Shown piece by piece: positions 680 through 18,440 of a stretch of 64,000 bases of DNA. How positions within the stretch are numbered: position 1 is the first letter of the stretch; each line of letters opens with the position of its first letter. The DNA is from an uncultured Candidatus Saccharibacteria bacterium (GTDB lineage: Bacteria > Patescibacteriota > Minisyncoccia > Ryanbacterales > GWA2-47-10b), in the NCBI GenBank assembly GCA_964356915.1, contig CAYHJF010000001.1:77743-141742 (forward strand), in the 5' to 3' direction. Position numbers and translations under genes: made by a program. Below the pieces are notes generated by a model. The model saw only the letters and a program-made list of their open reading frames with translations, was not told where the DNA came from and ran no database searches.

Positions 680-1396
680 TTATCGGAATCGAACGGGCAC
701 GGCAAAAGATTTTGCATACTCAGGTAGACCGCTGGGATTATCATTCTCAAAAAGTACGTACCCTGTATTTGCGGTTGGCGCTCCAAATGAAAGCTTACCT
801 TCAAACTCCACAAAATCCTCTGTCATCCATTCGCCCTTTGCCTGTAACGGTCCTTTGGCAATCAATTTATTATTTTCATCAAAGATACTTACGGGCATAT
901 TTGCTTCAAAAAACCACGTGCCCCGTGCCTTACCCTTGAGCACGAGTGGAGTTGAGATAATTGAATTTGCAACAGGACTTTCGATAACAACTTCTGGTAC
1001 TTGTTGGCGTTCATAGGTAATCGGTATATGTCGGGACTCAACGGACGTACCATCCGCTCCGTATACTCGAGCCCATACCTCACCCTCGAGGCGTAACTCT
1101 CCTAATAAAAAACGCTCTTCATTATTTGGCAACTCTTTTCGAAAAATCGTATCGGCGTCAGCGTCAGCTCCTTGGTATAATATTTCTTCTTTAACAACAT
1201 TTTTTGTATGAAGAACGACTGATGAATCGGAACCGTGAACAACGGTTTTACCATCCATACGACTCGGGACGATCGAGATCTCTTCTACTATTGGCTCTTG
1301 CTTCTGATATACCTGTTTTCGTTCAGGTAAAAATTTGAGCGCGAGCGCAATAATGGCCAGTAAAATCCAAAACCCAAAAAATAATTTTCCTTTCAT
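680..1396 (-). CDS. membrane-anchored protein with C-terminal Gmad2-like Ig domain
   Basis: N-terminal TM (FFGFWILLAIIALAL); C-terminal region (GTWFFEA...GEWMTEDFVEFEGKLSF) resembles Gmad2 Ig-like domains. Confidence 0.45.
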   Translation of the reverse strand: MKGKLFFGFWILLAIIALALKFLPERKQVYQKQEPIVEEISIVPSRMDGKTVVHGSDSSVVLHTKNVVKEEILYQGADADADTIFRKELPNNEERFLLGELRLEGEVWARVYGADGTSVESRHIPITYERQQVPEVVIESPVANSIISTPLVLKGKARGTWFFEANMPVSIFDENNKLIAKGPLQAKGEWMTEDFVEFEGKLSFGAPTANTGYVLFENDNPSGLPEYAKSFAVPVRFR

Positions 1397-4254
1397 AGTA
1401 CGATATTTACAAGCTTATTACCCACAATAATAATATTCTTCGGTTCTTGCCCATTTATATATTTCTTAATCTGCTCGCTTGAAAGCGCGCGCTCTTTCAT
1501 CTCCTGTTCGGTAATAGTTGCGGCAACTTCAATAATCTCACGCATCTTACCATTAACCTGAATCACGAGTTTGACAGAAACATCATGCGTTAGCGCCTCA
1601 TCGTAAGTTGGCCACATACTCTTATGAATTGAGTCTTTCTCGCCGAGCATCTCAAAAAGCTCGTCAGCGACGTGAGGAGCGAGCGGGGCGAGAAGCTTTA
1701 GAAAATCTTTAAGATCTTTTTTACCAACAATCCGACCACCCTCTTCAAACGTGTTGAGACAAATCATAAGTGCAGAAATCGCCGTATTAAATTGAAGCGA
1801 CTCCATATCTTCACTCACTTTCTTAATTGCCTTTGCAATCGCACGCTCCGCTATCTCATCGGATTCACCATCGATAACGCATTCCTTAAAATCCCATACT
1901 CGGCTCAAAAATCGTACCATGCCCCGAATGCCTGTATCTTGAAAATCTCCTCCCTCCGTCAGCGGTGCCATAAAAGCCAAATACATGCGCAGTGCATCTG
2001 CTCCGTACACACGCAAATAATCGTCGGGGTTTATCACATTGCCACGAGACTTTGACATCTTCGCTCCATCTTTCGTAATAAGTCCATGTGCGCGAAATTG
2101 CTTGATTGGTTCACCGCCAGACTCTTTTGCAAAATCAACAAACCCAAGATCGTGCAGCGCCATCGAAACAAAACGAACGTACAGAAGATGAAGTACTGAA
2201 TGTTCCGCACCACCAATATACGAGTGAACGGGCGCCCATGTGCGAGCACGAGACTCTGATACAAATTCTTTTTTATTACTTGGATCGAGATAACGTAAGT
2301 AATACCACGCAGAATCTAAAAACGTATCTGAAACATCTGTTTCTCGGCGCGCCTTACCTCCACACTTCGGGCACGTCGTTTCATAAAACTCCGGAAAGTT
2401 CGCGAGCGGTGCTTTATCTGTTCCCGTCGGACGAAATTCTTTTACATCAGGTAACAACACAGGCAAATTTTCCTCCTTCTCTGAAATCCATTCTTTACAC
2501 GAGTCACACCAAATCATCGGGATTGGTGGTCCCCAATAACGCTGTCGAGAAATAAGCCAATCACGAAGACGATAATTTGTCTGTTGCTTCCCCTTAACTT
2601 TTTCTGTAATTTTCCATTTTGCTTCTCTCGAACTCATCCCATCAAACTCTCCTGAATTTGTCAGTATGCCATCTCCGGAATATATTTCTCCTAAAACCAA
2701 ACGTCGAAATCCAAGAAGATGATTTTCATCCTCCATTTTTTGCAAAACCTCATCTTTTGTCAGCCACTCGATAGTAAAATTTCCTTTTTCATCATGTTGG
2801 AGATTTTCTTCAACTCGCTCATCTCCTTTCAGCCGAAAATAAAGACTAGTCACCTCAATATTGCGCGCGACATTCTTTGAAAACGCAAAGTAGTGGTGAT
2901 GCATGAGCTCTGACTTTGCCACAAACTCTAGTTGCGTATACCCCGTTTCTTCTTGAATCTCACGGAGTGCTGTTGCTACCTCATCTTCACCCTCTTCACG
3001 CCCCCCACCAATAAACAGCGTCCCGCCAAGTTTTGACCCCCAGTTCAATGTTAAAAATTTCTTATGCTTTGGATCCTCAACAATAGCGACAATACTCCTG
3101 CGATGCTGTTCGTCCGGCATTATCTTCCCTGTCTCTGGCTCAATGACCAACGCAATAGGAAGTTCAAACTTCTTTGCAAATTCAAAATCACGCTCATCGT
3201 GTGCTGGCACTGCCATGATCGCGCCTGTACCATATCCGCCAAGTACATAATCCGCGACCCAAACCGGAATCTGCTTATCAGTCGCAGGATTGATCGCATA
3301 GATACCACTAAAAACCCCTGTTTTTTCTTTTCCGAGAGCCAAACGCTCCTCTTCTTTTCCACCAAGGCTCTTCGTGATGTATGCCCTTACTTCGTCGGGT
3401 GCCTGCCACCCAATATCAAGCCAAAATTTTGCAGTCTCTGGCGAGATAACAAGAAAAGTTGTGCCAAAAAGTGTATCGGGGCGTGTCGTAAATACATCTA
3501 CCGAATGTTTGCCGTCTTCTTGTCCCGGGATACCGGTGAGTGGAAATGTGATAAGAGCACCCTCTGATTTACCGATCCAATTACGCTGAGCAGTTGTAAT
3601 TCGCCCATCCCAATCAATATGATCGAGACCATCTAAAAGTCGTCCGGCGTATTTCGTAATTTTGAAAAACCACTGCTCTAATTCTTTTTGAATAACCTCT
3701 GTTCCACATCGCTCACATTTTCCAGCGATCACCTGTTCATTTGCGAGTACGGTCAAACACTTCGGGCACCAATTGACCGATGCTTTTTTTCGATACGCAA
3801 GCCCCGCCTTAAAAAGCTGAATAAACAGCCACTGTGTCCAGCGATAATATTCGGGGTCATACGTCTCGAGTTTTTCGTCCCATGCAAATGCATTGCCAAT
3901 CTCATGCAACTGACGATAAAAATTTTCCTCAGTGCGTAGAGCAAGTTTTTTTGGATGCTCCCCAATCTTAATGGCGTAATTTTCTGAATTGATACCAAAT
4001 CCATCAAGTCCCATTGGCTGAAACACATCATGTCCCTGCATTCGCTTAAAGCGTCCGTATATATCAACTCCCGTAAATGTGCGCACACCTCCAATATGCA
4101 ACCCCTCCGCGGATGGATAGGGGAACATCATGAGATTATAAAAAGGCTTCTTGGGATTATCTAGATCCGGCTCGTACAAACGGTCTTGCAACCACCGCTC
4201 GCGCCACTTTTTCTCAATCTTTTTAAAATCGTACGCCTTCATGAATTCTTTCAT
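1393..4254 (-). CDS. leuS: leucyl-tRNA synthetase, with an inserted Nudix domain
   Basis: HIGG-type class I motif, TTRPDTLFG editing motif, GTGAIMAVPAHDERDFEFA, NSGEFDGM, RLRDWLISRQRYWG and KMSKS all present; 953 aa; extra ~150 aa carries a Nudix box. Confidence 0.93.
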   Translation of the reverse strand: MKEFMKAYDFKKIEKKWRERWLQDRLYEPDLDNPKKPFYNLMMFPYPSAEGLHIGGVRTFTGVDIYGRFKRMQGHDVFQPMGLDGFGINSENYAIKIGEHPKKLALRTEENFYRQLHEIGNAFAWDEKLETYDPEYYRWTQWLFIQLFKAGLAYRKKASVNWCPKCLTVLANEQVIAGKCERCGTEVIQKELEQWFFKITKYAGRLLDGLDHIDWDGRITTAQRNWIGKSEGALITFPLTGIPGQEDGKHSVDVFTTRPDTLFGTTFLVISPETAKFWLDIGWQAPDEVRAYITKSLGGKEEERLALGKEKTGVFSGIYAINPATDKQIPVWVADYVLGGYGTGAIMAVPAHDERDFEFAKKFELPIALVIEPETGKIMPDEQHRRSIVAIVEDPKHKKFLTLNWGSKLGGTLFIGGGREEGEDEVATALREIQEETGYTQLEFVAKSELMHHHYFAFSKNVARNIEVTSLYFRLKGDERVEENLQHDEKGNFTIEWLTKDEVLQKMEDENHLLGFRRLVLGEIYSGDGILTNSGEFDGMSSREAKWKITEKVKGKQQTNYRLRDWLISRQRYWGPPIPMIWCDSCKEWISEKEENLPVLLPDVKEFRPTGTDKAPLANFPEFYETTCPKCGGKARRETDVSDTFLDSAWYYLRYLDPSNKKEFVSESRARTWAPVHSYIGGAEHSVLHLLYVRFVSMALHDLGFVDFAKESGGEPIKQFRAHGLITKDGAKMSKSRGNVINPDDYLRVYGADALRMYLAFMAPLTEGGDFQDTGIRGMVRFLSRVWDFKECVIDGESDEIAERAIAKAIKKVSEDMESLQFNTAISALMICLNTFEEGGRIVGKKDLKDFLKLLAPLAPHVADELFEMLGEKDSIHKSMWPTYDEALTHDVSVKLVIQVNGKMREIIEVAATITEQEMKERALSSEQIKKYINGQEPKNIIIVGNKLVNIVL

Positions 4255-4310
4255 GCTATGGGAAAAAACACTTCAAATCAAATGAAAAACCCCGTCAAAG
4301 ACGGGGGTGA

Positions 4311-5156
4311 CTAATCTAAAAGCATCATAGCGACAAGAGTATGAACGCGCCGAGCAAATGTAGGAACATCTTCATGCTCCAAAATATCGATCGGATGACC
4401 AAATTCAAGCGTGAGACGTGCGCCAGATTTGAGGCGCAAAAGAGAACCTTTGGGGAGCGCTTTATGCGCGCCGGAAAGTGCGAGTGGCACGATCGGGAGC
4501 TTTGCCTCTTTGGCAATCGCAAAAGGTCCCTTCTTGAATTCGCCAAGTCGCCCATCGTGCGAGCGTGTTCCTTCAGCAAAGAAAATGAGATTGACCGTCG
4601 GATCTGCTTGTACTGTGGCACGGATTGCCGCCATTGATTGTGCATGATCTGCCCGATCAATGATTGCCTGCGCACTCACCCGTGCAAGCGCTCCGACAAT
4701 CGGGTACGAAAGTACCTCTCTTTTTGCAACAAACCGCGCAAATGGAATTGTAGCGACAAGAAGCAAAACATCGAGCACGCTCTGATGATTTACCACGATC
4801 ACATGAGACCGCGACCAATCAACGCGATCATATCCGATGACCCGAACATCGATCCCTGCGCGTTCCAAGATCCATGGCGCCCAAAATCGTCGTACAAGAC
4901 GCCAATTGTATCGACTGCGCGTACGATCGCGCCACGCGCGGTCTCCCGCATAGACGCGCTGACACTCTGGATATTCGCGATGCCCTGTGCAAACAGGCGT
5001 ATGTCGCCTTAGTACTCGTATCGCACGTCTACCAATAACGATAGTCCGCCAAAACGCCGCGAGAACGATATAGGTATTACGAATAGCATTGTATGGGTGT
5101 CGAAGATATTGACCGACCGTCCATACAGGATACTTTGCATACGTCAGTGCGTTCAC
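4311..5156 (-). CDS. 1-acyl-sn-glycerol-3-phosphate acyltransferase-like (LPLAT family)
   Basis: FAEGTRS motif, N-terminal TM and a PlsC-like HxxxxD region; true start may be internal. Confidence 0.55.
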   Translation of the reverse strand: MNALTYAKYPVWTVGQYLRHPYNAIRNTYIVLAAFWRTIVIGRRAIRVLRRHTPVCTGHREYPECQRVYAGDRAWRDRTRSRYNWRLVRRFWAPWILERAGIDVRVIGYDRVDWSRSHVIVVNHQSVLDVLLLVATIPFARFVAKREVLSYPIVGALARVSAQAIIDRADHAQSMAAIRATVQADPTVNLIFFAEGTRSHDGRLGEFKKGPFAIAKEAKLPIVPLALSGAHKALPKGSLLRLKSGARLTLEFGHPIDILEHEDVPTFARRVHTLVAMMLLD

Positions 5157-5211
5157 ACGCGACTCCCTTCATAAGAAGAACGATTACCCTGTTCTTAGCA
5201 CGTCGCGCAAA

Positions 5212-6051
5212 TTACGCAAGCCGAAAAAGTTTTGTAGCATTCTCTGTCGTCGCGCGCGCTACCTCTTCATATGAAATACCGCGGAGCTCCGCTACTTTTT
5301 TTGCTATCTCTCGCACATACAATGGCTCGTTGCGCTTACCTCGATACGGCACCGGTGAGACATAAGGTGCATCCGTCTCAACCATAATCCGATCGAGTGG
5401 AGATTTGGTCAGGGCATCATCATAGTCACGCGCAAAGGTAATGACTCCTGTAAACGACAAATGAAATCCTAAATCTAAAAACATCTTGGCGTCTTCCCAT
5501 GAACCCGCAAAAAAATGAATCGTCCCACCCGCCTCATCGGCTTTTTCCTCGCGCAAAATTGGCGCGAGATCATGATACGCGTTTCGACAATGAATAATCA
5601 TCGGTTTTTTTACTTCGCGCGCAAGCTGAATCTGACGACGTAATGTCTCGTGCTGCTTATCTCGCTTGTCGTCCGTCTCGCCTGTCCGAAAATAATCGAG
5701 TCCACACTCTCCGATCGCTACCGTCTTTGAATCAAGCGCGAGTGTTTTGTAATAATCAAAATCAAATTCTTCTGTGCGCGTATCAAATCCCGGTACATTG
5801 TCTTCGCCGATTTCCTTGGCATCAACATGAAGCTCGGTCAGATGAATCGGGTGAAGCCCGACTGCCGCCCATACTCCGTCATCATATTTACGCGCATATT
5901 CAAGGGCACGTCGTGACGTACTTGCCTGCGACCCAACGAGAATCATCCCCACACCTCCCTCATGAGCTCGCGCAATGACCTCTGGGCCGTCCTCTTTAAA
6001 CGCATTGAAATTTACATGCGCGTGGATATCGATAAGTTCCCAATCTCTCAT
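5212..6051 (-). CDS. TatD family metal-dependent DNase/hydrolase
   Basis: IDIHAHVNF N-terminus, ETDAPY motif, ~279 aa. Confidence 0.85.
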   Translation of the reverse strand: MRDWELIDIHAHVNFNAFKEDGPEVIARAHEGGVGMILVGSQASTSRRALEYARKYDDGVWAAVGLHPIHLTELHVDAKEIGEDNVPGFDTRTEEFDFDYYKTLALDSKTVAIGECGLDYFRTGETDDKRDKQHETLRRQIQLAREVKKPMIIHCRNAYHDLAPILREEKADEAGGTIHFFAGSWEDAKMFLDLGFHLSFTGVITFARDYDDALTKSPLDRIMVETDAPYVSPVPYRGKRNEPLYVREIAKKVAELRGISYEEVARATTENATKLFRLA

Positions 6052-7607
6052 GACTGTACGGTATCAAAAGATGGGAAGAGTGCTACACCACCCTGTATAG
6101 TGACTTTTTCGTCATGCATGACGAATATATCTTTTATCTTTTGTGCGGTACTCGGCATAAACGGCTCGAGAAGAGGAACGGATGCAAGGATATGTGAGGC
6201 AAGATTCCACAGTACTGCGAGCGCCTTTTGTTCGTCAATCTTGATAAGTTTATATGGTTCGTAATCTTGAATATACCCATCGAGTAACGCAAAGAAGCTA
6301 AACAATATTTTTATGGCTTCTGTCAGCTCAGTTACTTCCATAGCGTGGCTATATCGCTCTTCTATTTCTTTATGAAAATATCGATGCAACGTCTCACTGT
6401 CGAGCTCAACGGTCTTCTCGGAAACCTCTTGGCGAAGCTGTCGCTTCAACGGAATTGTCGCGAGAATATCAGCGGGAGGCTTGGCGATACCATCTGGCGC
6501 GTATTTTTGGATCATCGTAAAGACACGCGAGACAAGATTGCCAAGTCCGTGGGCAAGATTTCCTTGATACACGTCTTGAAATCGCTCGAGCGTAAAATCC
6601 CCATCCCCACCAAATGGAATCTCGCGCATAAGAAAATACCGAAACGCATCTACACCGTATGTATCAATGATAGAAAGCGGGTTGATCACATTTCCGATTG
6701 TCTTTGACATCTTTTGCCCGCCAGAAATAATCATCCCGTGTACATAGAGCGCTTTGGGCAATGGAAGATTTGCAGCCATGAGCATCCCCGGCCAAATAAC
6801 CGCATGAAAACGTAGAATATCTTTGCCAACCACATGGAGATTGGCAGGCCACATCGTACTCATGCGCGACTCATCGGATGAACCATATCCTAAAGCCGAG
6901 AGATAGTTGGAAAGCGCGTCCGCCCACACATACATCGTATGCTCTGGATCTCGGGGCACTGGTATCCCCCAACCAATATCTTTTGAAGGGCGAGAAAAAC
7001 TAATATCTTCAACACCGTCAGCTAAAAACGCGAGAACTTCATTCTTGCGAACTTCTGGCAAAACTTGAAAGGCTCCCGACTCAATTGCACTTTTGATGCG
7101 TGAAGCATATTTTGAGAGTCGAAAAAAATAATTCTCCTCTTCTATGACTTCTGGCGCTTGATTGTGATCAGTACACTTTCCATCTACAAGATCTTTTTCT
7201 GTTACAAATGCTTCGTGCCCAATACAGTAAAGGCCTTTGTATGAAGATTTATACAAATCCCCTGACTCCATAAGCTTTTCCCACATCTTTTGCGCGCCCG
7301 GCCAATGATGTTCCTTATCCGCCGTGTAAATAAATCCATCATTGGATGCGTCAAGTCTCTGAAGTAGGTTTTTGAATTCCTCTCTTCGTTCTTCGACAAA
7401 TTTTTCGACGGGCACTCCCGCCTTTTCTGCTGAACGCAAAATCTTTGCCCCATGCTCATCCGTACCTGAAAGAAAAAACGTATCATCTCCCTTGAGGCGA
7501 TGATATCGCGCGCACACATCCGCAATCACATCAGCATACGCATGTCCTAGGTGTGGAGATGCGTTGGCATAATAAATAGGAGTTGTAATGTAAAATGTAC
7601 GGCTCAT
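6048..7607 (-). CDS. metG: methionyl-tRNA synthetase (short form)
   Basis: PIYYANASPHLGHAY (HIGH-type motif), KMSKT motif, 519 aa. Confidence 0.92.
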   Translation of the reverse strand: MSRTFYITTPIYYANASPHLGHAYADVIADVCARYHRLKGDDTFFLSGTDEHGAKILRSAEKAGVPVEKFVEERREEFKNLLQRLDASNDGFIYTADKEHHWPGAQKMWEKLMESGDLYKSSYKGLYCIGHEAFVTEKDLVDGKCTDHNQAPEVIEEENYFFRLSKYASRIKSAIESGAFQVLPEVRKNEVLAFLADGVEDISFSRPSKDIGWGIPVPRDPEHTMYVWADALSNYLSALGYGSSDESRMSTMWPANLHVVGKDILRFHAVIWPGMLMAANLPLPKALYVHGMIISGGQKMSKTIGNVINPLSIIDTYGVDAFRYFLMREIPFGGDGDFTLERFQDVYQGNLAHGLGNLVSRVFTMIQKYAPDGIAKPPADILATIPLKRQLRQEVSEKTVELDSETLHRYFHKEIEERYSHAMEVTELTEAIKILFSFFALLDGYIQDYEPYKLIKIDEQKALAVLWNLASHILASVPLLEPFMPSTAQKIKDIFVMHDEKVTIQGGVALFPSFDTVQS

Positions 7608-7616
7608 ATCGTATTT

Positions 7617-8660
7617 CTATTCTTCTTTTTTGCGCGCTTCCACATCACCCAAAAACTCGATAAGAATAACAGCGAGAGGTACTGCGATAATGATACCGAG
7701 AACCCCCGCGAGCTTGCCGCCAATCATAAGAGCGATAATCGCAAGCAATGGTGGTACACCCACGGTCTTACGGACAACTTGCGGGTAGATAAGGTGGTTT
7801 TCCATTTGTTGCACGATGAAATAAATACCCGCAACCAAAAGTCCTAAGAGCGGCTGTTGGATTGAGGCTACAACGATTGCAGGAATAGCCGCCATGATAG
7901 GACCAAAGTATGGAATCACCTCGAACACCGCGGAAAGGACTGCGAGCAAAAACGCATATCGTACCTGCAAAATCGTAAGTGCGATAAATACAAGCACGCC
8001 GATAATAACTCCGAGTAACATCTGGCCCTGAAGCCATCTACCAATTTTGCGCTGAGAGCGCGTCCACAAGCTTAATACATACGTTTCGTGCTCTTTGGGT
8101 GTCACGATGCGCAGAACATTTGCGATACCATCTTCCTGTACTGCGAGATAAAACGAGATAACAAATATAAATACAAAGGCGAAAACACTTGAAACAATCC
8201 CCGCAGTCGCGCTAAAGACGCCTCCAACCGCACCGCCAACCATCGAATTGACGCGGAGCGCCAAATCATGAAAGGTAGGCGCGATCAAATCAAACGGCAA
8301 CGCAGGAAACTTATCCTGAAGCTGTTCGAATGCCTTTTCAACTAACGTCGGAAGTTGCGCGAAGAAACTGCGAAAATCATTGGCGAGCGGTGGAATCAAA
8401 AAATAAAATATCGAGAGAATACCAAAAATCCCTCCAAGATAAATCAGCAAAACTCCAAGCACGCGCGGGATTTTCCATCGAGTAAGTCCTCGCACGAGCG
8501 GCTCTACTGAAGAAGCAATGACAACGGAGACTAAAATGATAAGCACGATATCTCGAATCGCATAAAGAAACCCGAGCCCTACAACCATGAGTAACAAGCG
8601 CGCAAGTGATCCTGTCGTAATCTGTATTGTTTGTTGCGTCTTACCTGTCATATTATCCAA
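7617..8660 (-). CDS. AI-2E family (PerM/YhhT-like) transporter
   Basis: 347 aa, ~8 TM segments, typical AI-2E topology and size. Confidence 0.7.
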   Translation of the reverse strand: MDNMTGKTQQTIQITTGSLARLLLMVVGLGFLYAIRDIVLIILVSVVIASSVEPLVRGLTRWKIPRVLGVLLIYLGGIFGILSIFYFLIPPLANDFRSFFAQLPTLVEKAFEQLQDKFPALPFDLIAPTFHDLALRVNSMVGGAVGGVFSATAGIVSSVFAFVFIFVISFYLAVQEDGIANVLRIVTPKEHETYVLSLWTRSQRKIGRWLQGQMLLGVIIGVLVFIALTILQVRYAFLLAVLSAVFEVIPYFGPIMAAIPAIVVASIQQPLLGLLVAGIYFIVQQMENHLIYPQVVRKTVGVPPLLAIIALMIGGKLAGVLGIIIAVPLAVILIEFLGDVEARKKEE

Positions 8661-9951
8661 GCTCTGTCATAAGTTTTATAAAGACATCTTTTGATTGGTG
8701 CGGACCGATAACCGTAAGATAACTATTGGATGTTCGGAAAAGTTTTTTTGCAATTCTATTGATATCCTCTTTGGATACCTTGTCGATCTTACGTTCGAGT
8801 TCTTCAGGAGTTGCGAGTTTATTGAGCAAGATCTCTTGCTCACCCAAAAATCCCGCGACCTCATCGGTCGATTCAAGCGCGATGGCGAGCCTACCTTTTG
8901 CATTATCTTTCGCGCGTGTTAATTCTTCGTTGGTCACACCTCCCTTGCGAATGCGCGCGAGATTTTCAACGATTCGCTGAACAACTTCTTGCGCCTTTGC
9001 GTGTGGAGTACCGGCATACGCGGCAAAATATCCAACTTTGCGATACGCCTCGTGCACTGCGCGCACTGCGTAGGCAAGACCTCTCCGCTCTCGGATGTCC
9101 ATGAAAAGACGTGAACTCATGTAGCCACCAAGAATAGTCGCAAGCACACCCGCAGCCATTTTATCTTTGTGCGACATATGAAAACCAGTCGTCCCAAGGA
9201 GTACGTGACTCTGCGCGGTATCTTTTTCAAAGATACGAACACGTGGACCAGCAGAAACGCGCGGAGGCTCGGGAGCTTTTTCAAATTTACCTGTGCGCAG
9301 ACCTGCGAAGGCTTTTTCAATTTTTGCAAATGTTGCGCTCTCTGAAACCTTCCCTGCGACAACAACGACGGTATTTGAAGCAACATACTGCGATTTCCAG
9401 TACTGCAAGAATGCTGAACGTTTCATCGAGTGAATATTTTTAGCAGTACCGATAACATCCCATCCGTATGGATGATCACCATATAAGTTTTCCTCAAAGA
9501 CAGACCAAATATATCGCATCGGATCATCCCAAATCATACTCATCTCTTCAAGAATCACTCCACGCTCTCGGTCAATCTCTTCTTCTTTCAAAAGTGCATC
9601 TTGTAAGATTTCCGAGACCCAATTGATACCAAATTGGGCATGCTTTGCATCAGCTTTAATCCAATATCCGGTTACCTCGCGAGAGGTAAACGCGTTGTGA
9701 ATAGCTCCGATTGCATCGAGCTGCCGATCAAGCTCACCTGGCTTTGGATATTTTTTTGTTCCTTTGAAAAACATGTGTTCCAAAAAATGAGAAAGACCAT
9801 TGATGTTTTTCTTTTCATAATTTGAACCCGTACCAATCAAAACAAGTACAGTGACGGTGTCAGTCCCTTCCATGGGAGCCACAATGGCACGGAGGCCGTT
9901 TGAGAATGTTTTTTTAGAAAATTTCATAGGAAAAGTGCTTTCAGCATACAC
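8653..9951 (-). CDS. M16 family zinc peptidase (pitrilysin/insulinase-like)
   Basis: HFLEHMFFKGT inverted zinc-binding HxxEH motif; 432 aa. Confidence 0.8.
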   Translation of the reverse strand: MYAESTFPMKFSKKTFSNGLRAIVAPMEGTDTVTVLVLIGTGSNYEKKNINGLSHFLEHMFFKGTKKYPKPGELDRQLDAIGAIHNAFTSREVTGYWIKADAKHAQFGINWVSEILQDALLKEEEIDRERGVILEEMSMIWDDPMRYIWSVFEENLYGDHPYGWDVIGTAKNIHSMKRSAFLQYWKSQYVASNTVVVVAGKVSESATFAKIEKAFAGLRTGKFEKAPEPPRVSAGPRVRIFEKDTAQSHVLLGTTGFHMSHKDKMAAGVLATILGGYMSSRLFMDIRERRGLAYAVRAVHEAYRKVGYFAAYAGTPHAKAQEVVQRIVENLARIRKGGVTNEELTRAKDNAKGRLAIALESTDEVAGFLGEQEILLNKLATPEELERKIDKVSKEDINRIAKKLFRTSNSYLTVIGPHQSKDVFIKLMTELG

Positions 9952-9986
9952 TGAAATTAAAGAAAATCAAAGGTGGATGAACGTGA

Positions 9987-11285
9987 TTAACGGAGCTTTT
10001 TTGAGAAAAAATCCGAGAGCTCCAAAGACCCAACACGCTCCTGCTCACCCGAGTCACGATCGCGCACAGTTACGGTATCATCTTCAAGCGTCTGGTAGTC
10101 AACGGTCACACACCACGGAGTACCGATTTCATCTTGCCTTCTATACCGTTTGCCCACATTACCAATATCGTCCCACACCACTGACCCAATAGTCTTTTTG
10201 AGCTCGCCATATATCTCACGCGCCTTAGCAACGAGGTGCTCTTTATTTGAAGCGAGTGGAAAAACTGCAACCTTAATTGGAGCAAGCGTAGGCTTGAGAC
10301 GCAGTACAACTCTTTTGGACCCACCTAATTCGTCTTCGTCATACGCGGAGAGTAAGACCGCAAGCACTGTGCGGTCAACACCAAGCGATGGCTCAATAAC
10401 ATGCGGGATAAATGTTTCGTTCGCCTCTTCGTCGCGATATGAGAGATCTTTTGAACTATATTCTGAATGCTTTGTGAGGTCGTAATTTGTACGATATGCG
10501 AGTCCATACAGCTCCTTTTTGCCAAACGGATATTCAAACTCAAAATCAATCGTACGCTTTGAATAGTGCGCGCGATCTCCTGCCGCTACCTCAAGCTCGC
10601 TTACTGACTCTTTTGTAAGACCAATTGAGTCACACCACCTGAGCATCTCGCTACGAAAATGTTCAAAATGCACCTCCCACTCTCCCTCGCGAACAAAATA
10701 TTCGATCTCCATTTGCTCGAACTCGCGAGAACGAAATACAAAATCGCGTGGCGTAATTTCATTTCGAAATGCCTTGCCGATCTGCGCGATACCAAAAGGA
10801 AGTTTTGGGTGAAACGAATCAATCACATTTTTGAAATTCACAAAAATCCCCTGCGCGGTCTCGGGACGAAGATAGGAAGTATTCGAAGAATCCTCAACTG
10901 CGCCCACCTGCGTCTTAAACATCATATTAAATTGGCGAGGCTCTGTAAGTGCGCCTTCGCATTCGGGACACGTCGTCCCTTCTATCTGATCAGCACGAAA
11001 TCGTCTTTTACACTTTGTGCACTCAACCATTGGATCTGCAAACCCAGCGACATGTCCTGACGCTTCCCACACTCGCGCATTCATCAAGATTGCCGCATCG
11101 AGCCCAAACATATCTTCACGCTCCAAAACAAATTGTTTCCACCAAAGAGACTTGATGTTATTTTTGAGCGCCACGCCAAGCGGACCATAGTCCCACGTAC
11201 CCGCAAGTCCTCCGTAAACTTCAGACCCCGGAAAGATAAACCCTCGGCGCTTTGCAAGCGAAATGATTTGTTCAAGCGATGTCAT
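9987..11285 (-). CDS. glyS: glycyl-tRNA synthetase (eukaryote/archaeal-type alpha2)
   Basis: N-terminus RRGFIFPGSEVYGGLAGTWDYGPLG typical of dimeric GlyRS; class II motifs. Confidence 0.9.
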   Translation of the reverse strand: MTSLEQIISLAKRRGFIFPGSEVYGGLAGTWDYGPLGVALKNNIKSLWWKQFVLEREDMFGLDAAILMNARVWEASGHVAGFADPMVECTKCKRRFRADQIEGTTCPECEGALTEPRQFNMMFKTQVGAVEDSSNTSYLRPETAQGIFVNFKNVIDSFHPKLPFGIAQIGKAFRNEITPRDFVFRSREFEQMEIEYFVREGEWEVHFEHFRSEMLRWCDSIGLTKESVSELEVAAGDRAHYSKRTIDFEFEYPFGKKELYGLAYRTNYDLTKHSEYSSKDLSYRDEEANETFIPHVIEPSLGVDRTVLAVLLSAYDEDELGGSKRVVLRLKPTLAPIKVAVFPLASNKEHLVAKAREIYGELKKTIGSVVWDDIGNVGKRYRRQDEIGTPWCVTVDYQTLEDDTVTVRDRDSGEQERVGSLELSDFFSKKLR

Positions 11286-11318
11286 AGTAGTGACCCTATC
11301 ATACGAAAACCTCTCACG

Positions 11319-13253
11319 CTACTCGCGCACGGCAGCACCATTCACAACCGCTTCAGGATCGTTCCCAATGTCCGTATTGATCTGATTTGTCGGTTGTAAG
11401 AAAAGTCGACCGGTAAATGAGTCTTCAGCACGAAACGATGCTGCGGAAATAAGTTGTGGCGTAGAATCAACTTGCGGGAGTGATGGCTTGATACCTATTT
11501 GAAACGTTACCTCGCGTGGCTGATTTACATATCCAGTGCCTGCGGGAATTGTGCCGGGCAACCATACAAGTTCACCGGTCGTCTGCTTATACTGAAGTCG
11601 CTCCTGACTTGGAACAACAACATTTTTCCACGATACGTATGAAGGCAACGTCGCCTTCACCTCAACATTCTTTAAATCGCTATATGCATTCGCAATGGAC
11701 CATACAACTGTATAGGTGGTCTCAAGACCAACACGAGGAGGCAATGGTCCTGTATTTTGAATGCTTTGCCCAAAATAATATCCGTTTTGTACAAATCGTG
11801 CGCGCGTAGCAACTTTGTACGCCTTTTCAAATACACCGGACAAATCAACTCCTTGATATCCTGATGGTACTTCGGTCGTATGAATACGAGACTTGAGTGT
11901 AATAACAAAATCCTTATCACTCGGTGAAGTAATAGGAATATCTTTTAATAAGAGTATGCCGAAATCAAATTCACCACTTGCGCCCGGTTCAACAACAGAA
12001 AGTGCCGGTACACGCCCCGGGACCCATCGAAGTGCGTTGCGAGACTGATCATATTCGCCAAGAGTACTGGAAAGCCTCCTCAAATCGAGTGCCTTTCCAT
12101 CGAGCACAACTTCAACTTCCACATTATGAACGGCTACCGGCAAATTGTTGCGCCATCGCACCGTCCCTCGGAGTTCATCTCCCGCCGTAACCACGCCTGG
12201 CTCTTGTTCCCCCTGACTCAATCCAACCGCGACAGACAAGAGCGATGAATTAACGGCATATGTTTCTGACACTGTATTAAACGCAATCCATGAATCTTGC
12301 GCTCGATCATATAAACCAACGCGCGCATGAAATGTTTCTGGATTTTCGCTTGGTTTAATCTTTCCTCGGAGCGTAACGATGAACTCTCCGCTTGCGGGCA
12401 AATCTCCAATCTTCCACACATTATTACCTTGTTCTGGCGCAGGGGATGCGTCTGCATATTCAAACGAATCCGGATACTCAACCATCACATACATACCTCG
12501 AAAAACATTTTCTGCGCTTGATGTTACATGTAATTTGATTTCAGCCTGCTGCCCACCCTGTAATCCTTGTGGGATATCAAACTGAATTCCTAGCGATGTC
12601 GCATAAATTTTTGATTCATAGGTAACATCTTTTGAAAACCGCGCCGAGGAATCTTGGGGTCGATACTCGAGAGAAACGCGACCTCCTACAATACTATCCT
12701 TGGGCCCAAATACAATTCCTTGAAATATTTCTTCACTCACCGCCTCCGGTCCGAGCGTCTGCAACTCGCGCTTTTCTCGCTTGAGGCCAGTTTTAGAAAA
12801 TTCTCCTACAACCGGTTGAGTGCCGTTTGGAAATTCAAAGACGAGCACGGCATTTTCCAGCGGCGTTTTATTGCCATTTTTATATGTCACACGCCACGCA
12901 ACTTTTCTACCCGCAACGATCTCTTCTCCTCCTTCAACGGAAATAGAAATATTTTGTAACGTATCATGCCCTGGTTTAAATAAATTAAAACCACCCGCCG
13001 TCCAAAATAAATATCCAAAAATACCAAGTAACATTACAACTCCGCCGCCGATCCCCCAACGTATGATTGATCGGCTTATTCGCTTTTCGCGCATATCCTC
13101 TGGAGGTTGAGCTTCTTGATACTCATGTTCTTGTTCGTGCGACCACGCACCTGAAACATCTGCTCGATGTTTATCAAGTTGTGGTTCTTCATACCTCCGA
13201 TCAAAGCGTTCGTTCTTTCGAAAGAGACGCTTCTGTAAATCATCAATTCCCAT
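11319..13253 (-). CDS. large membrane-anchored surface protein with repeated beta-sandwich (DUF11/CARDB-like) domains
   Basis: 644 aa; cytoplasmic N-terminus, single TM (GIGGGVVMLLGIFGYLFW), then repeated ~100-aa beta-rich units. Confidence 0.5.
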   Translation of the reverse strand: MGIDDLQKRLFRKNERFDRRYEEPQLDKHRADVSGAWSHEQEHEYQEAQPPEDMREKRISRSIIRWGIGGGVVMLLGIFGYLFWTAGGFNLFKPGHDTLQNISISVEGGEEIVAGRKVAWRVTYKNGNKTPLENAVLVFEFPNGTQPVVGEFSKTGLKREKRELQTLGPEAVSEEIFQGIVFGPKDSIVGGRVSLEYRPQDSSARFSKDVTYESKIYATSLGIQFDIPQGLQGGQQAEIKLHVTSSAENVFRGMYVMVEYPDSFEYADASPAPEQGNNVWKIGDLPASGEFIVTLRGKIKPSENPETFHARVGLYDRAQDSWIAFNTVSETYAVNSSLLSVAVGLSQGEQEPGVVTAGDELRGTVRWRNNLPVAVHNVEVEVVLDGKALDLRRLSSTLGEYDQSRNALRWVPGRVPALSVVEPGASGEFDFGILLLKDIPITSPSDKDFVITLKSRIHTTEVPSGYQGVDLSGVFEKAYKVATRARFVQNGYYFGQSIQNTGPLPPRVGLETTYTVVWSIANAYSDLKNVEVKATLPSYVSWKNVVVPSQERLQYKQTTGELVWLPGTIPAGTGYVNQPREVTFQIGIKPSLPQVDSTPQLISAASFRAEDSFTGRLFLQPTNQINTDIGNDPEAVVNGAAVRE

Positions 13254-13290
13254 AGAGTACTTTCAATTATATACAACCTTTGCCTTAAGG

Positions 13291-13866
13291 TCATGCCCGA
13301 ATATGATTTGCAGCCAAAATCCGCTCGATTGCCGCCTCAAAATGAGCAACTTCTACTGGATCAGCTAAGAAAACCGCGTCACCCGCACCAACGATGAACT
13401 GAACTGCCCGTTTACCAAAAAACTGCGTAAGCATCGTACGATCTGGGCAAAGCCCTAACGCCAAAAGAGTTCGTATCTTGAGCGCGGCAAGACGCTCATA
13501 TGAATTAAGTTGCTGTAATAACTCGACTGTTCGCCACAAATCAAGACTCTCCTCGCGCTCCGTAACAAGCTTCAAAAGAAACGCGCAAAATTGAGCCGCA
13601 TAAAATGACTCTGGACGAGACGAATCAACTCCCTGCATAACCTCTATATCAATCAATCTCCACACATCTCTTCCAACGGTCACCGTAATACGAACGGGAG
13701 CCCACAATATCACATGCCCCCGTAATTTCGATTTCTCATGACGAATACCTTTTGCAATAACATCAACTCGCCCCCATGTCTTTGTGTAAAATATAACCAT
13801 CCGATCCGCCTCTCCGATCGGATATGATCGGAGTATGTAAGCTTCAGACGTATAATACGTACTCAT
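13291..13866 (-). CDS. recO: DNA repair protein RecO (short form)
   Basis: N-terminus YILRSYPIGEADRMVIFYTKTWGRVDVIAKG matches the RecO N-terminal OB-fold domain. Confidence 0.7.
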   Translation of the reverse strand: MSTYYTSEAYILRSYPIGEADRMVIFYTKTWGRVDVIAKGIRHEKSKLRGHVILWAPVRITVTVGRDVWRLIDIEVMQGVDSSRPESFYAAQFCAFLLKLVTEREESLDLWRTVELLQQLNSYERLAALKIRTLLALGLCPDRTMLTQFFGKRAVQFIVGAGDAVFLADPVEVAHFEAAIERILAANHIRA

Positions 13867-16800
13867 GCCTCAAGCTTGGCAATTGCAATGCGCGTCTTTA
13901 TACCATCGATGAGTTGTTCTTCGTCAAGAAGAGGATTTTTTAACGAAGCGGGGAGGATAAACTCCGCAACACGCGCGCCCCTTTTTACAACCTCCGTAAA
14001 TTCTCCGAGAATTTCTGTATCCATGTCAACCGTAATCATATCCGTTGGGTGTAGCTCCGCGCGCTTACGCATATCCTGAAGAATACGGGTAATCTCTCGT
14101 GCAAGACCCTCAGCCTTAAGCTCTGGCGTTATCTCTAGATTAAGAAGCGCTAGTTCATTTTGCGCCTTATTGATATTTATAGCTTTTACATTGAGCTCAT
14201 CTTTAAGAATTGAAAGAAGTGCTTTATCGGTTACGGTAGTTTTTTTAACAATCAACGCGCCCAACGGCTGACGGACTTTGATGCCAGCGCGCGCGCGAAG
14301 CTCAAGCCCAAGCGCGGCAAGACGTCTCACTTCCTGCATTTGTGTAGTCAGTGTTTTTGATACAATTTTTTTCTTAGGCCACGTCTCAAGATGCACGCTC
14401 ACTGATGAACCACCAAGAGCCTGATATATAATCTCACTGGTAAACGGAACAAACGGAGCACACATCCTTGCAGTCTCCAGCAATACCGCTCTCAACGTTG
14501 CAATGCCATCTCCATCTTTCATGCGTTCACGCGAACGACGAATATACCATCGAGAAATATCTTCGCCTACAAACGCTTCGAGTTCACGCGCGGCCCCAAC
14601 AATATCATATCCATCCATACACTTTGTCACCTTATCGCGCACTTCACTCACGCGTGCCACAATCCATCGATCAAGTACATTTGCTGTCACGCGCTTCTTT
14701 TTTATCACTTCTGTATGCGCGTACATCTCATAAAACCGTAACCCGTTGAGCAAGAAATCGATAAAATTACGTTTTGTCTTTTCAACATCATTGATATCGA
14801 ATAACTTTGAATCCTCGGGCTGATTTATCGTATAGAAATACCATCGCACCGCATCAGCACCATATTTTTCAAAAAGCATATTCGGCTCAACAACATTTCC
14901 CTTTGACTTGGACATCTTCTTTCCTTTTGTATCGAGTACATGACCAAGCGACAACACATGTTTATACGGCGCTCCCTTCCCTAACAACACCGATACTGCA
15001 AGAAGCACATAAAACCATCCGCGCGTCTGATCAACAGCTTCCGCGATATAATCTGCTGGAAACGCGATTTTCTTATCGATGCGTTCTTTATGTTCAAAAG
15101 GATAGTGTGACTGCGCGAATGGCATCGCCCCCGAATCAAACCACACGTCTGCCACATCCGGCACGCGCTTCATGGACGATCCGCACCCCGTGCATCGTAC
15201 AGCGACAGCATCAATATACGGACGATGTACATCAAGCTCCCCTTTATCGTTGCGAGGCAGCGCTACTGCAAGAACCTTGTTAATGTCTCCGTTTTTTGGA
15301 TATTTACCACTCGGTTTTTTGTGGTCTTCGAGTACCGCCTTCATCACTCCCTCCAAAAACCACAACGTATCAGCGTGACTTACGATGATAATACGTTTGT
15401 GTTTGTGAAGTGTTTCGACACGCTGGAAAAACCGATAGGCCCGTTTTTTAAGATCATCCCACGACTCTCCATCACCCGGAAATGGAGTCGTAAAACGATC
15501 CACTCGCTCTTCCCATGCATCAATCTCTGACTCCGGCTTCATATTAAAGTCTCCAATATGAACCTCTCGCAAGTCCTCATCATATAAAACCGGTACGCCA
15601 AGCTCACGCGCAAGAATTTCTGTCGTCTCTTTTGTACGCAAGAGATCCGACGACAAAATAAGATCGATCTTTGCCTTTTTCAATTTCTTCGCCGCCAATT
15701 TTATCTCCTTTACTCCACGTGGCGTCAATCCAAGTTGATCTCCTTTTACTGTATTGGAGCCGATCTGGAGCTGATTATTTTTTGCAAAACCATGTCGTAC
15801 AAAATAATACACGTTGTCACTCGTAACGCCATGCTCTCCTAGTTCCTTCATCGAGCCAAACACATCGACACGGTCACACCCCTCACACTTCCACACAGGA
15901 ATCGGCGCGCCCCAATACCGTTCGCGTGAAAACGCCCAATCTCGCGCATCCTTAATCCATTGGCCAAACCGCCCATCTTTTAAATGTGCTGGATGCCATT
16001 CAACTGTTTTATTTGCCTCAACAAGCTCGCGGCGCAATTTACTGACACGCACCCACCATGACCGGCGCGCCACGTACAGAAGCGGCGTATCGCAACGCCA
16101 ACAAAATGGGTAGTCGTGCTCGTATACTTCTTTTTTCCAAAGAAGATTTTTTTGTTCGAGATCTTTAATGATTAACGGGTCAGCATCTTTTACAAAAATT
16201 CCCTGCCACTGTGGCACCACATTCGTAAAACGCCCCTCGTCATCGATTGTCGTAAGAATAGGCAAATCAAATTCTCGTCCAACTTTCATATCGTCCTCAC
16301 CAAATGCCGGCGCAATATGCACGATGCCCGTACCATCATCTTCGGAGATGAATTTTGCGGACACTACTTTATATGGTACGTTTTCAGCGCGAAATGGTGG
16401 ATCATATTCAAGTCCCACAAGATTTGCTCCTTTTTCCGCCCACTGCTGCTCTCTTTCTGGAAAAAGCTTGTCCGCAAGCTTTTTAAGCATAATAAACTTC
16501 TCACCCTTATCATCAACAGTGACGTACTCAAGATCAGGATGTACCGCCGCCGCGACGTTGGCAGGCAAAGTCCATGGCGTTGTCGTCCATACAAGCAGTG
16601 AACCTCGTCGAGTTTTTAAGGGAAATCTTACGTATACTGAATCGTCTTTTGTTTTTTTGTACCCTTGAGCAAGCTCATGACTTGAAAGTGCGGTGCCACA
16701 TCGCACGCACCACGGCAAAATTTTATAATCTTCATAAAAAAGCTTTTTATTCCAAAACTCCTTGATAACCCACCAGAGCGATTCAATATATGTATTATTG

Positions 16801-17264: not shown

Positions 17265-17321
17265 GACGATTGACTCTCATCTTATTCTTGTTACGCTGAC
17301 GCAAGAATTGGAGGACAAGAA

Positions 17322-17609: not shown

Positions 17610-17611
17610 CA

Positions 17612-17648: not shown

Positions 17649-17667
17649 ATCTCTCTAAACTTTATAT

Positions 17668-18405: not shown

Positions 18406-18440
18406 GCAAACGCAAGAAAAACTCGCGCAATGCTATTAAT

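What the first reader, a model, noticed from the sequence alone, without database searches (positions are those of the whole stretch)
2700..3140. LeuRS carries an in-frame Nudix hydrolase domain inserted in the CP1/editing region
E. coli LeuRS has only ~40 aa between the conserved editing-domain motif GTGAIMAVPAHDERDFEFA and the NSGEFDGM motif. Here the gene has ~150 extra residues at that position. They contain a textbook Nudix box (GX5EX7REUXEEXGU), GGREEGEDEVATALREIQEETGY, encoded at ~2938-3010. The reading frame is continuous and all LeuRS catalytic motifs (HIGG, KMSKS) are intact, so this looks like a domain fusion rather than a pseudogene. aaRSs synthesise Ap4A and related dinucleotides, and Nudix enzymes hydrolyse them. 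A Nudix module embedded in an aaRS editing domain has not, to my knowledge, been described.
Basis: partly seen in the sequence, partly recalled or inferred. Interest (0 to 1): 0.7.

Follow-up and report, generated by a model that had tools for sequence, protein, structure and literature searches.

The report
LeuRS with embedded Nudix hydrolase domain
A groundwater candidate-phyla-radiation bacterium encodes a complete leucyl-tRNA synthetase with an apparently active Nudix pyrophosphatase domain spliced into its proofreading domain, and this design is widespread in these bacteria yet I found no paper describing it.

Summary

It is not a one-off. 78 of the 120 best LeuRS homologs, all from Patescibacteria (CPR), carry the insert at the same site with conserved catalytic residues. 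Relatives carry this Nudix subfamily at up to four LeuRS positions, in one to three copies. Others carry serine-hydrolase, Ham1 or ASCH inserts. The IleRS in this window carries a histidine-phosphatase insert.

The substrate is unknown, because sequence, profile and fold searches give only generic Nudix similarity.

I read it as an autonomous nucleotide pyrophosphohydrolase carried by an insertion-tolerant synthetase. It is a new variant of known kinds, undescribed in the literature I searched.

The parts
1393..4254 (-). Complete leucyl-tRNA synthetase ORF (953 aa) carrying the insert
   Evidence: ORF list. TIGR00396 leuS_bact 879 bits against a cutoff of 548. Phmmer to T. thermophilus LeuRS 1H3N gives E 6e-205. 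AF2 model pLDDT 92.9, pTM 0.86. Foldseek TM 0.83 to E. coli LeuRS 4AQ7.
4087..4098 (-). HIGH-type signature, variant HIGG (aa 53-56)
   Evidence: L52, H53 and G55 are invariant in 103 aligned homologs and the fourth position varies (consensus HVGN).
3115..3585 (-). CP1 editing domain, part N-terminal to the insert (aa 224-380). Includes the T-rich motif FTTRPDT (nt 3472-3492) and GTG...AHDERD (nt 3175-3231).
   Evidence: PF13603 profile positions 1-149 of 185, E 2.2e-56. T256, T257, R258, D260, T261, D353 and D356 are invariant across 103 homologs.
2689..3108 (-). Inserted segment (aa 383-522) absent from T. thermophilus and other insert-less LeuRS
   Evidence: The 1H3N alignment breaks at chain 372/375. 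Spacer lengths are 13-57 aa in insert-less homologs against 159-193 aa in insert-bearing ones.
2725..3105 (-). Nudix-fold domain (aa 384-510)
2938..3006 (-). Nudix box GX5EX7REUXEEXGU (aa 417-439)
   Evidence: The strict box is present in 68 of 78 insert-bearing homologs. G, E, RE and EE..G are invariant or over 90% conserved, as are downstream K460, E489 and W497 (full-length numbering).
2575..2688 (-). CP1 editing domain, part C-terminal to the insert (aa 523-560, includes NSGEFDGM)
   Evidence: The alignment to 1H3N resumes at query 523 = chain 375. AF2 shows strands 371-375 and 529-531 flanking the insert.
2047..2061 (-). KMSKS catalytic loop (aa 732-736)
   Evidence: K732, S734, K735 and S736 are invariant.
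1510..1848 (-). Anticodon-binding-type helical domain (aa 803-915)
   Evidence: PF08264 E 3.1e-20.

Best explanation
The gene encodes a bifunctional protein. It is a complete, probably fully working bacterial-type LeuRS (aminoacylation plus CP1 post-transfer editing). A roughly 140-residue Nudix-fold domain has been inserted into a surface loop of the editing domain, between two short strands that a few residues join in ordinary LeuRS.

The Nudix lobe keeps every residue of the catalytic Nudix box and a conserved downstream Glu. It therefore most likely works as a Mg2+-dependent pyrophosphohydrolase.

I think it acts autonomously on a free nucleotide-type substrate (nucleoside di- or triphosphate derivatives, with dinucleoside polyphosphates among the candidates). 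That would be nucleotide house-cleaning or salvage. LeuRS would serve as an insertion-tolerant, always-expressed carrier, not as a mechanistic partner.

Shown here: the architecture, the predicted fold, the conservation of catalytic residues, the distribution across Patescibacteria, and recurrent insertions at several sites. Inferred: enzymatic activity, substrate class, and independence from aminoacylation and editing.
For: Architecture and integrity. The fold is confidently predicted both in the full protein (aa 384-520 at pLDDT 94-98, pTM 0.86) and alone, and it matches Nudix structures.

Selection on catalysis: the inserts average only 37% pairwise identity against 62% for the LeuRS core, yet the Nudix-box G/E/RE/EE/G positions stay invariant or over 90% conserved.

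Evidence for autonomy:
- Free-standing proteins of the same subfamily exist (L021, 182 aa; many representatives of 126-230 aa).
- The same subfamily sits at four different LeuRS positions and in one to three copies.
- It also sits in a PepA-GNAT protein (P0181).
- Close LeuRS relatives lack the insert. For example P0012 is 77% identical in the core to insert-bearing P0003.
- The insert is kept in a LeuRS whose editing motifs have degenerated (L026).
- Unrelated hydrolases occupy LeuRS loops in relatives: Ser_hydrolase, Ham1 and ASCH.
- The IleRS of this same window carries a histidine-phosphatase insert, and so do all 120 of its best homologs.

The editing and synthetic-site residues are invariant whether or not the insert is present.
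Against: There is no biochemistry. The substrate could not be assigned: NCBIfam equivalogs are all far below their cutoffs (best YtkD/RppH 31.7 bits against 154), and the PDB sequence, profile and fold rankings are flat.

The subfamily strongly prefers LeuRS. 105 of the 150 best representatives carry LeuRS motifs, and insertion into LeuRS happened repeatedly. This is more than a neutral 'hitch-hiking' model predicts and points to some functional tie to LeuRS.

I could not inspect model coordinates. I therefore do not know whether the Nudix active site faces the CP1 pocket or the tRNA acceptor end.

A sub-clade has E->Q and R->A/M/T changes in the box, so not all members need be active.
Confidence: 0.5

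Rival explanations
1. One reading: the Nudix lobe is coupled to aaRS side-chemistry. It would hydrolyse Ap4A/Ap3A (or released aminoacyl-adenylate-derived products) made at the LeuRS synthetic site.
Against: The similarity to Ap4A hydrolases is confined to the Nudix box (E about 1e-3) and is no better than to ADP-ribose, NDP-sugar, mRNA-decapping or inositol-pyrophosphate enzymes. The same window encodes a separate Nudix protein (box at 30422-30490) whose five best PDB matches are all Ap4A hydrolases over nearly its full length (E 5e-15 to 5e-11), so that role appears already filled. Other hydrolase types replace or accompany the Nudix in relatives. I could not evaluate the Tyr specificity motif of ApnA hydrolases (PMC5389931).
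Confidence: 0.2
2. The Nudix lobe acts on RNA ends. It would be an RppH/NudC-like 5'-pyrophosphohydrolase or decapping activity, aimed at tRNALeu (or other RNAs) held by LeuRS.
For: The best curated-family hit for the insert is TIGR02705 nudix_YtkD ('RNA deprotection pyrophosphohydrolase'), aligned over most of the profile, followed by RppH models. RppH and decapping Nudix enzymes (AvrM14, oomycete effectors, 2KDV/6D13) rank high in the fold searches. From established LeuRS-tRNA structures, CP1 sits next to the tRNA acceptor end.
Against: The scores are far below the family cutoffs (31.7 against 154.4 bits). Bacterial tRNAs normally carry a 5' monophosphate after RNase P cleavage (general knowledge). 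Free-standing and PepA-embedded copies of the same subfamily exist. The geometry was not testable.
Confidence: 0.1
3. The insert is a non-catalytic Nudix-fold module. It would serve a structural role, bind tRNA or sense a nucleotide, as some members of the Nudix homology clan do.
For: The Nudix clan includes non-enzymatic members (PMC5389931). A sub-clade of inserts has E->Q plus R->A/M/T substitutions in the box (8 of 78), and 2 of 78 have E->D. In LeuRSs with several Nudix domains, one copy is usually of this degenerate type. The insert evolves much faster than the LeuRS core.
Against: In this window's protein, and in 68 of 78 relatives, the full catalytic box is intact. The REUXEE glutamates and a downstream Glu are invariant or nearly so despite 37% mean identity. 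That pattern is the signature of selection on catalysis.
Confidence: 0.1
4. Artefact: a chimeric assembly, or a frameshifted or pseudogenised LeuRS.
For: None found.
Against: The reading frame is continuous. The identical protein is on four contigs, three of which were fetched and confirmed, from separate assemblies. 78 homologs carry the insert at the same site. The fused protein is modelled with very high confidence. Base composition shows no striking break at the insert.
Confidence: 0.01

Closest known systems
Bacterial-type leucyl-tRNA synthetase (T. thermophilus 1H3N/2BTE, E. coli 4AQ7)
   Same: It has the full catalytic core, the CP1 editing domain with the T-rich and Asp motifs, KMSKS, and the anticodon-binding and C-terminal domains. 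It is 31-37% identical, with TM 0.78-0.83.
   Different: It carries a 140-aa Nudix domain in a CP1 loop. Its HIGH motif is HIGG. About 20 residues replace the ~70-residue stretch around the leucine-specific domain (1H3N residues 564-635). Mycoplasma mobile LeuRS also lacks that domain and still charges tRNA (abstract of PMC3643597, listed).
Bifunctional NadM-Nudix (NMN adenylyltransferase/ADP-ribose pyrophosphatase, e.g. PDB 2QJO)
   Different: That protein is an end-to-end fusion with a metabolic link between the two activities (NAD and ADP-ribose). Here the Nudix is nested inside an editing domain and no metabolic link is known.
Free-standing Nudix hydrolases of unknown or varied specificity (closest fold: E. 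faecalis MutT/nudix protein 2AZW)
   Different: It is only 17% identical, and 2AZW has no assigned function. The insert belongs to a Patescibacteria-centred subfamily that is mostly embedded in LeuRS.
Asymmetrical Ap4A hydrolases (NUDT2, C. elegans 1KT9, lupin 1F3Y)
   Different: The insert matches them only across the box (E about 1e-3). The separate Nudix gene in this window matches them over its full length (E 5e-15).
Other aaRSs with an extra enzymatic domain: the IleRS-GNAT family (NCBIfam NF040702) and the IleRS-histidine-phosphatase protein in this window
   Same: Each is a class Ia synthetase with a second catalytic domain built into the polypeptide.
   Different: The inserted enzyme, the host synthetase and the insertion site all differ. 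None is characterised, as far as I could find.
Mycobacterial MutT1 (Nudix + histidine-phosphatase two-domain enzyme; PDB 5GG5, 9CXX)
   Different: In MutT1 both domains are in one small protein. Here they sit in two different synthetases.

Membership tests
Bacterial leucyl-tRNA synthetase (TIGR00396 leuS_bact) | Whole-protein HMM score above the curated cutoff | tested here: met
   879.3 bits against a cutoff of 548.4.
Bacterial leucyl-tRNA synthetase (TIGR00396 leuS_bact) | Class I signature motifs HIGH and KMSKS | tested here: inconclusive
   KMSKS is intact (aa 732-736). The HIGH motif is HIGG, and the fourth position varies across the family (consensus HVGN), while L52, H53 and G55 are invariant. 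This is compatible with activity but is not the canonical motif.
Bacterial leucyl-tRNA synthetase (TIGR00396 leuS_bact) | CP1 editing domain with the T-rich motif and the conserved Asp residues | tested here: met
   PF13603 E 2.2e-56. FTTRPDT and AHDERD are present. T256, T257, R258, D260, T261, D353 and D356 are invariant in 103 homologs.
Bacterial leucyl-tRNA synthetase (TIGR00396 leuS_bact) | Overall LeuRS fold | tested here: met
   AF2 pLDDT 92.9. Foldseek TM (normalised by target) 0.78-0.83 to T. thermophilus and E. coli LeuRS.
Bacterial leucyl-tRNA synthetase (TIGR00396 leuS_bact) | Leucylation of tRNALeu and hydrolysis of mischarged tRNALeu | not testable with these tools
   This needs enzyme assays.
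Nudix hydrolase superfamily (PF00293) | Pfam NUDIX score above the gathering threshold | tested here: met
   49.1 bits against 21.1, E 7.6e-13, aa 384-510.
Nudix hydrolase superfamily (PF00293) | Nudix box GX5EX7REUXEEXGU | tested here: met
   GGREEGEDEVATALREIQEETGY at aa 417-439 fits every position. It is conserved in 68 of 78 homologs.
Nudix hydrolase superfamily (PF00293) | Alpha/beta/alpha Nudix fold | tested here: met
Nudix hydrolase superfamily (PF00293) | Mg2+-dependent hydrolysis of a nucleoside-diphosphate-X substrate | not testable with these tools
   This needs enzyme assays.
Asymmetrical Ap4A hydrolase (NUDT2-like) subfamily | Full-length similarity to characterised Ap4A hydrolases | tested here: not met
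   The insert matches 1F3Y at E 1.2e-3 over 36 residues (box only) and NUDT2 at E 0.02. By contrast, the other Nudix gene in the window matches 1KT9 and NUDT2 at 5e-15 and 5e-13 over about 130 residues.
Asymmetrical Ap4A hydrolase (NUDT2-like) subfamily | Conserved X-loop tyrosine downstream of the Nudix box (PMC5389931) | tested here: inconclusive
   A conserved Tyr (Y455, in the HHHYFAFSK motif) lies 16 residues after the box. I could not superpose structures to see whether it is equivalent to NUDT2 Y87.
RppH/YtkD RNA pyrophosphohydrolase (TIGR02705, NF001936) | Equivalog HMM score above the cutoff | tested here: not met
   31.7 bits against 154.4 (YtkD), and 21.7 against 118 (RppH).

The most novel reading that the evidence does not exclude
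The hydrolase modules built into Patescibacteria class Ia synthetases may not be passengers. These are Nudix, serine hydrolase, Ham1 and ASCH in LeuRS, and histidine phosphatase in IleRS. They could act in cis as an extra layer of 'chemical proofreading' or self-protection at the synthetase. For example, they could destroy nucleotide-type by-products or aminoacyl-nucleotide (adenylate-mimic) inhibitors right where these bind.

Three hints point this way. The same Nudix subfamily was captured by LeuRS repeatedly and at several sites. Stand-alone 'CP1 fragment + Nudix' ORFs exist. And the subfamily occurs in a PepA-GNAT-GNAT-Nudix protein. PepA-type peptidases process peptide-nucleotide antibiotics (reference title listed in bioRxiv 10.1101/2020.03.04.977132). 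From my own knowledge, not tested here, RimL/MccE-type GNATs detoxify the processed antibiotic.
Probability: 0.12. Interest if true: 0.85.

Novelty: new variant of a known kind. Interest (0 to 1): 0.6.

Why it matters
Aminoacyl-tRNA synthetases are among the best-studied enzymes. Their added domains have been catalogued mainly in eukaryotes, where they support non-translational functions.

Here a second, apparently active enzyme sits inside the proofreading domain of a bacterial LeuRS. This is not a curiosity of one genome but a recurrent design across the candidate phyla radiation. It comes with sister designs: other hydrolases in LeuRS, and a phosphatase in every close IleRS relative.

If the inserted enzymes work together with the synthetase, this would reveal a new kind of quality control or self-defence at the first step of translation. 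If they are autonomous, it shows that ultra-small genomes pack house-cleaning enzymes into essential genes, and that CP1 and CP2 loops are natural, engineerable insertion sites.

Either way, annotation pipelines currently mislabel many of these proteins ('class I tRNA ligase family protein', 'NUDIX domain-containing protein', 'alpha/beta fold hydrolase'). That can make a genome look as if it lacks LeuRS.

Tried and rejected
- Searching the word-indexed protein database with the insert alone found only one fragment. The whole LeuRS was needed as the query.
- The afdb50 fold library was unavailable.
- A neighbour-joining tree, and the correlation between core distance and Nudix distance (Spearman -0.17), were meant to separate one gain plus losses from many gains. 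I do not rely on them. The 120 sequences were picked by total score to the query, which forces a trade-off between core and insert similarity. Only the nearest-neighbour pairs (an insert-less LeuRS whose closest core relative bears the insert) are used as evidence.
- The ApnA-hydrolase tyrosine motif could not be checked without coordinates.
- I considered an intein or mobile-element origin and rejected it. The segment is a complete Nudix fold with no other Pfam hit, and base composition shows no striking break.
- I considered misassembly and rejected it.
- Literature searches for LeuRS/aaRS + Nudix, CPR/Patescibacteria + aaRS + Nudix, CP1 insertions in Patescibacteria, and aaRS + histidine phosphatase found nothing relevant. 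The library lacks most subscription-journal papers, so absence there is not proof.
Full report
**1.

The region lies inside one uninterrupted ORF, 1393..4254 on the minus strand, encoding 953 aa.
- GTGAIMAVPAHDERDFEFA at aa 342-360
- the Nudix box GGREEGEDEVATALREIQEETGY at aa 417-439 (nt 2938-3006)
- NSGEFDGM at aa 533-540
- HIGG at aa 53-56
- KMSKS at aa 732-736

Pfam finds the LeuRS editing domain (PF13603, profile positions 1-149 of 185, aa 224-380). This is followed immediately by NUDIX (PF00293, aa 384-510, E 7.6e-13, 49.1 bits against a gathering score of 21.1), and then the rest of the class I core and the anticodon-binding domain. NCBIfam scores the whole protein as bacterial LeuRS at 879 bits, against a cutoff of 548.

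Against T. thermophilus LeuRS (1H3N) the alignment runs to chain residue 372 and resumes at 375. About 140 residues (aa 383-522, nt 2689-3108) are therefore extra.

The strict Nudix-box pattern occurs only twice in all six frames of the 64-kb window. The identical protein is called on four contigs; the three fetched come from separate assemblies of Hainich groundwater metagenomes. Misassembly is therefore excluded for practical purposes.

**2. Both halves look functional**

An AlphaFold2 model built on 103 homologs has mean pLDDT 92.9 and pTM 0.86. The insert (aa 384-520) is at pLDDT 94-98. It is flanked by short strands at 371-375 and 529-531.

The model superposes on E. coli and T. thermophilus LeuRS with target-normalised TM 0.78-0.83.

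The insert modelled alone (pLDDT 93.8) is a textbook Nudix fold:
- Foldseek gives 531 PDB matches at E<=1e-3.

In the 103-sequence alignment, the editing-site residues (T256, T257, R258, D260, T261, D353, D356), KMSKS and H53/G55 of the HIGH motif are invariant, whether or not the homolog carries the insert.

Two deviations from canonical LeuRS are lineage features and are not tied to the insert:
- The HIGH motif reads HIGG (family consensus HVGN).
- About 20 residues replace the ~70-residue stretch around the leucine-specific domain (1H3N residues 564-635).

**3. It is one member of a large family**

Of the 120 best LeuRS homologs, 78 carry a 159-193-residue segment at exactly this position. 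The other 42 have 13-57 residues there. All the named sources are Patescibacteria/CPR: Sung-, Lipton-, Niyogi-, Yanofsky-, Ryan- and Colwellbacteria, among others.

A scan of species-representative genomes found about 33 further loci with the order LeuRS-up / Nudix / LeuRS-down. They come from Minisyncoccia, Paceibacterota, Saccharimonadia, Gracilibacteria and Magasanikbacteria.

The inserts are diverse, with 37% mean pairwise identity against 62% for the LeuRS core, and they form several sequence clusters. Even so:
- 68 of 78 keep the strict box.
- The G, E, RE, EE and G positions are invariant or over 90% conserved, as are a downstream Lys, Glu and Trp.
- Ten sequences deviate. Eight have E->Q with R->A/M/T/E, and two have E->D.

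A profile of the insert, searched against 1.84 billion representative proteins, gives 886 hits at E<=1e-10 and 108 at E<=1e-30.

**4. The wider anatomy changes the interpretation**

Among the 150 best representatives of this Nudix subfamily, 105 carry LeuRS motifs. The domain is not always in the same place:
- 86 copies are in the CP1 loop seen here.
- 13 lie before CP1, upstream of the QxNWIG motif.
- A few lie in the first CP1 hairpin or after the RQRYWG...C..C zinc region.
- Twelve proteins carry two or three copies, usually one canonical and one of the E->Q type.

L023 (Taylorbacteria) is a clear example of the alternative site.

The subfamily also exists in other contexts:
- as free-standing proteins of roughly 126-230 aa (for example L021 at 182 aa)
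- as roughly 250-390-aa ORFs made of a CP1 fragment plus Nudix, such as L019 in a Clostridiales-labelled MAG; some of the others may be truncated LeuRS calls
- inside a PepA (M17)-GNAT-GNAT protein

Several insert-less LeuRSs have an insert-bearing protein as their closest core relative (77-82% identity). The insert has therefore been lost or gained repeatedly. One Saccharibacteria LeuRS (L026) keeps an intact Nudix box although its T-rich editing motif has decayed.

Other enzymes occupy the same or neighbouring loops in relatives:
- a serine hydrolase (PF06821), at three different sites
- a Ham1/ITPase domain
- an ASCH domain

In this very window, the IleRS (13863-17264, TIGR00392 at 840 bits) has a histidine-phosphatase domain (PF00300, 108 bits) inserted after RERYWG...C..C. 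All 120 of its best homologs share it.

**5. What it most likely does**

The conserved catalytic residues argue for an active Mg2+-dependent pyrophosphohydrolase. The substrate cannot be read from the sequence:
- The best curated family is YtkD/RppH, at 31.7 bits against a cutoff of 154.
- PDB sequence and profile searches put lupin Ap4A hydrolase, an uncharacterised MutT/nudix protein and ADP-ribose pyrophosphatase within one order of magnitude of each other.

A separate Nudix gene in the window (box at 30422-30490) matches C. elegans and human Ap4A hydrolases over nearly its full length (E 5e-15 and 5e-13).

I weighed these points for autonomy: free-standing homologs, multiple insertion sites, repeated loss, unrelated hydrolases in the same loops, and the IleRS parallel. 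On that basis my best reading (about 0.5) is an autonomous nucleotide house-cleaning or salvage enzyme that uses an insertion-tolerant, constitutively needed synthetase as its carrier.

The marked preference of this subfamily for LeuRS is the main argument against pure hitch-hiking. It keeps the coupled models alive:
- hydrolysis of ApnA or adenylate by-products (about 0.2)
- action on RNA or tRNA ends (about 0.1)
- a non-catalytic module (about 0.1)
- a speculative self-protection role (see the novel case)

I could not inspect model coordinates. The orientation of the Nudix active site relative to the CP1 pocket and the tRNA acceptor end is therefore the most important missing piece.

**6. 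Comparison with what is known, and novelty**

The protein passes the membership tests for bacterial LeuRS and for the Nudix superfamily. It fails those for the NUDT2-like Ap4A hydrolases and for RppH/YtkD.

The nearest architectural analogue is NadM-Nudix, a HIGH-superfamily nucleotidyltransferase fused end-to-end to a Nudix domain (PMC7824862; 2QJO). An NCBIfam model for an IleRS with a GNAT domain shows that other aaRS-enzyme chimeras have been catalogued.

Seven full-text searches found no paper describing a Nudix domain in LeuRS or any aaRS, or hydrolase insertions in CPR synthetases. The library omits much subscription literature, and the proteins themselves are in public databases under generic names.

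I therefore rate it a new variant of known kinds and not categorically new. Interest is about 0.6. It is a real, conserved and previously unremarked design in a textbook enzyme, but its function is unresolved and one plausible explanation is mundane.

Noticed in passing
window 13863-17264 (-): This IleRS (1133 aa; TIGR00392 at 840 bits) has an in-frame histidine-phosphatase superfamily domain (PF00300, 108 bits, aa 487-637) inserted after RERYWGAPIPVWKCEGCD. All 120 best IleRS homologs, all from Patescibacteria, carry PF00300 too. I found no literature on it.
   Followed up: partly
window 30095-30910 (-), Nudix box at 30422-30490: A free-standing Nudix protein (Pfam NUDIX, 68 bits). Its five best PDB matches are all Ap4A hydrolases (C. 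elegans 1KT9 at 5e-15, human NUDT2 at 5e-13, over about 130 residues). It is a likely dedicated Ap4A hydrolase in the same genome. It is only 40% identical to the LeuRS insert, over 57 residues.
   Followed up: yes
window 1393-20362: Four class I synthetase genes lie on the minus strand within 20 kb: LeuRS 1393-4254, MetRS 6048-7607, IleRS 13863-17264 and ArgRS 18749-20362. MetRS (519 aa) and ArgRS (537 aa) show no extra domains.
   Followed up: partly
window 4087-4098 (-) and about 2062-2130 (-): The LeuRS HIGH signature is HIGG (family consensus HVGN). About 20 residues (aa 708-730) replace the ~70-residue stretch around the leucine-specific domain (T. thermophilus 1H3N residues 564-635). 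Both are lineage-wide features, present with or without the insert.
   Followed up: partly
relatives P0013, P0027, P0038, P0039, P0050; L015:1855-5490, L028:1828-5277, L016:1486-4710, L023:1141-3747: Relatives of this LeuRS carry other inserted enzymes: a serine hydrolase (PF06821) at three different sites, Ham1/ITPase (PF01725), and ASCH (PF04266). These are often combined with the Nudix insert.
   Followed up: partly
P0122, P0123, P0130 (three Nudix domains); P0124, P0125, P0127, P0128 (two): These LeuRS proteins have two or three Nudix domains. Two are usually in tandem before CP1, with or without one in the CP1 loop. One copy usually has the degenerate box (E->Q, R->A).
   Followed up: partly
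L019:2650-3510; P0138, P0168, P0219, P0214: These ORFs of about 280-350 aa consist of a C-terminal piece of the CP1 editing domain plus the Nudix domain, with no LeuRS body nearby. L019 is from a Clostridiales-labelled oral MAG, and its editing Asp motif is changed to AHIPEH. They could be excised modules, gene fragments or horizontally transferred pieces.
   Followed up: partly
P0181 (1318 aa): A leucyl-aminopeptidase (M17/PepA) protein with two GNAT domains (one of the RimL/MccE-type family PF13302) and a Nudix domain of the same subfamily as the LeuRS insert (133 bits to the insert profile).
   Followed up: no
L026:1870-4683 (Saccharibacteria MAG): A LeuRS whose T-rich editing motif has degenerated (FSAHFEACYADTF in place of FTTRPDTLFG, and GTGIVKCSAHDERDF). 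The inserted Nudix domain nevertheless keeps a perfect box.
   Followed up: no
L023:1141-4507: The LeuRS reading frame is split into two overlapping ORFs (1141-3750 and 3482-4507). This is either a frameshift in the MAG assembly or a genuinely split gene.
   Followed up: no
L008, L016 (MAGs labelled Gammaproteobacteria); L038 (labelled Woesearchaeota): These CPR-type LeuRS-Nudix genes sit in MAGs with non-CPR taxonomic labels. The cause is probably binning or labelling error, not true occurrence outside Patescibacteria.
   Followed up: no
window 20915-21272 (+): A tmRNA gene (Rfam RF00023, 88 bits). It is the only Rfam family found in the window at gathering threshold.
   Followed up: no
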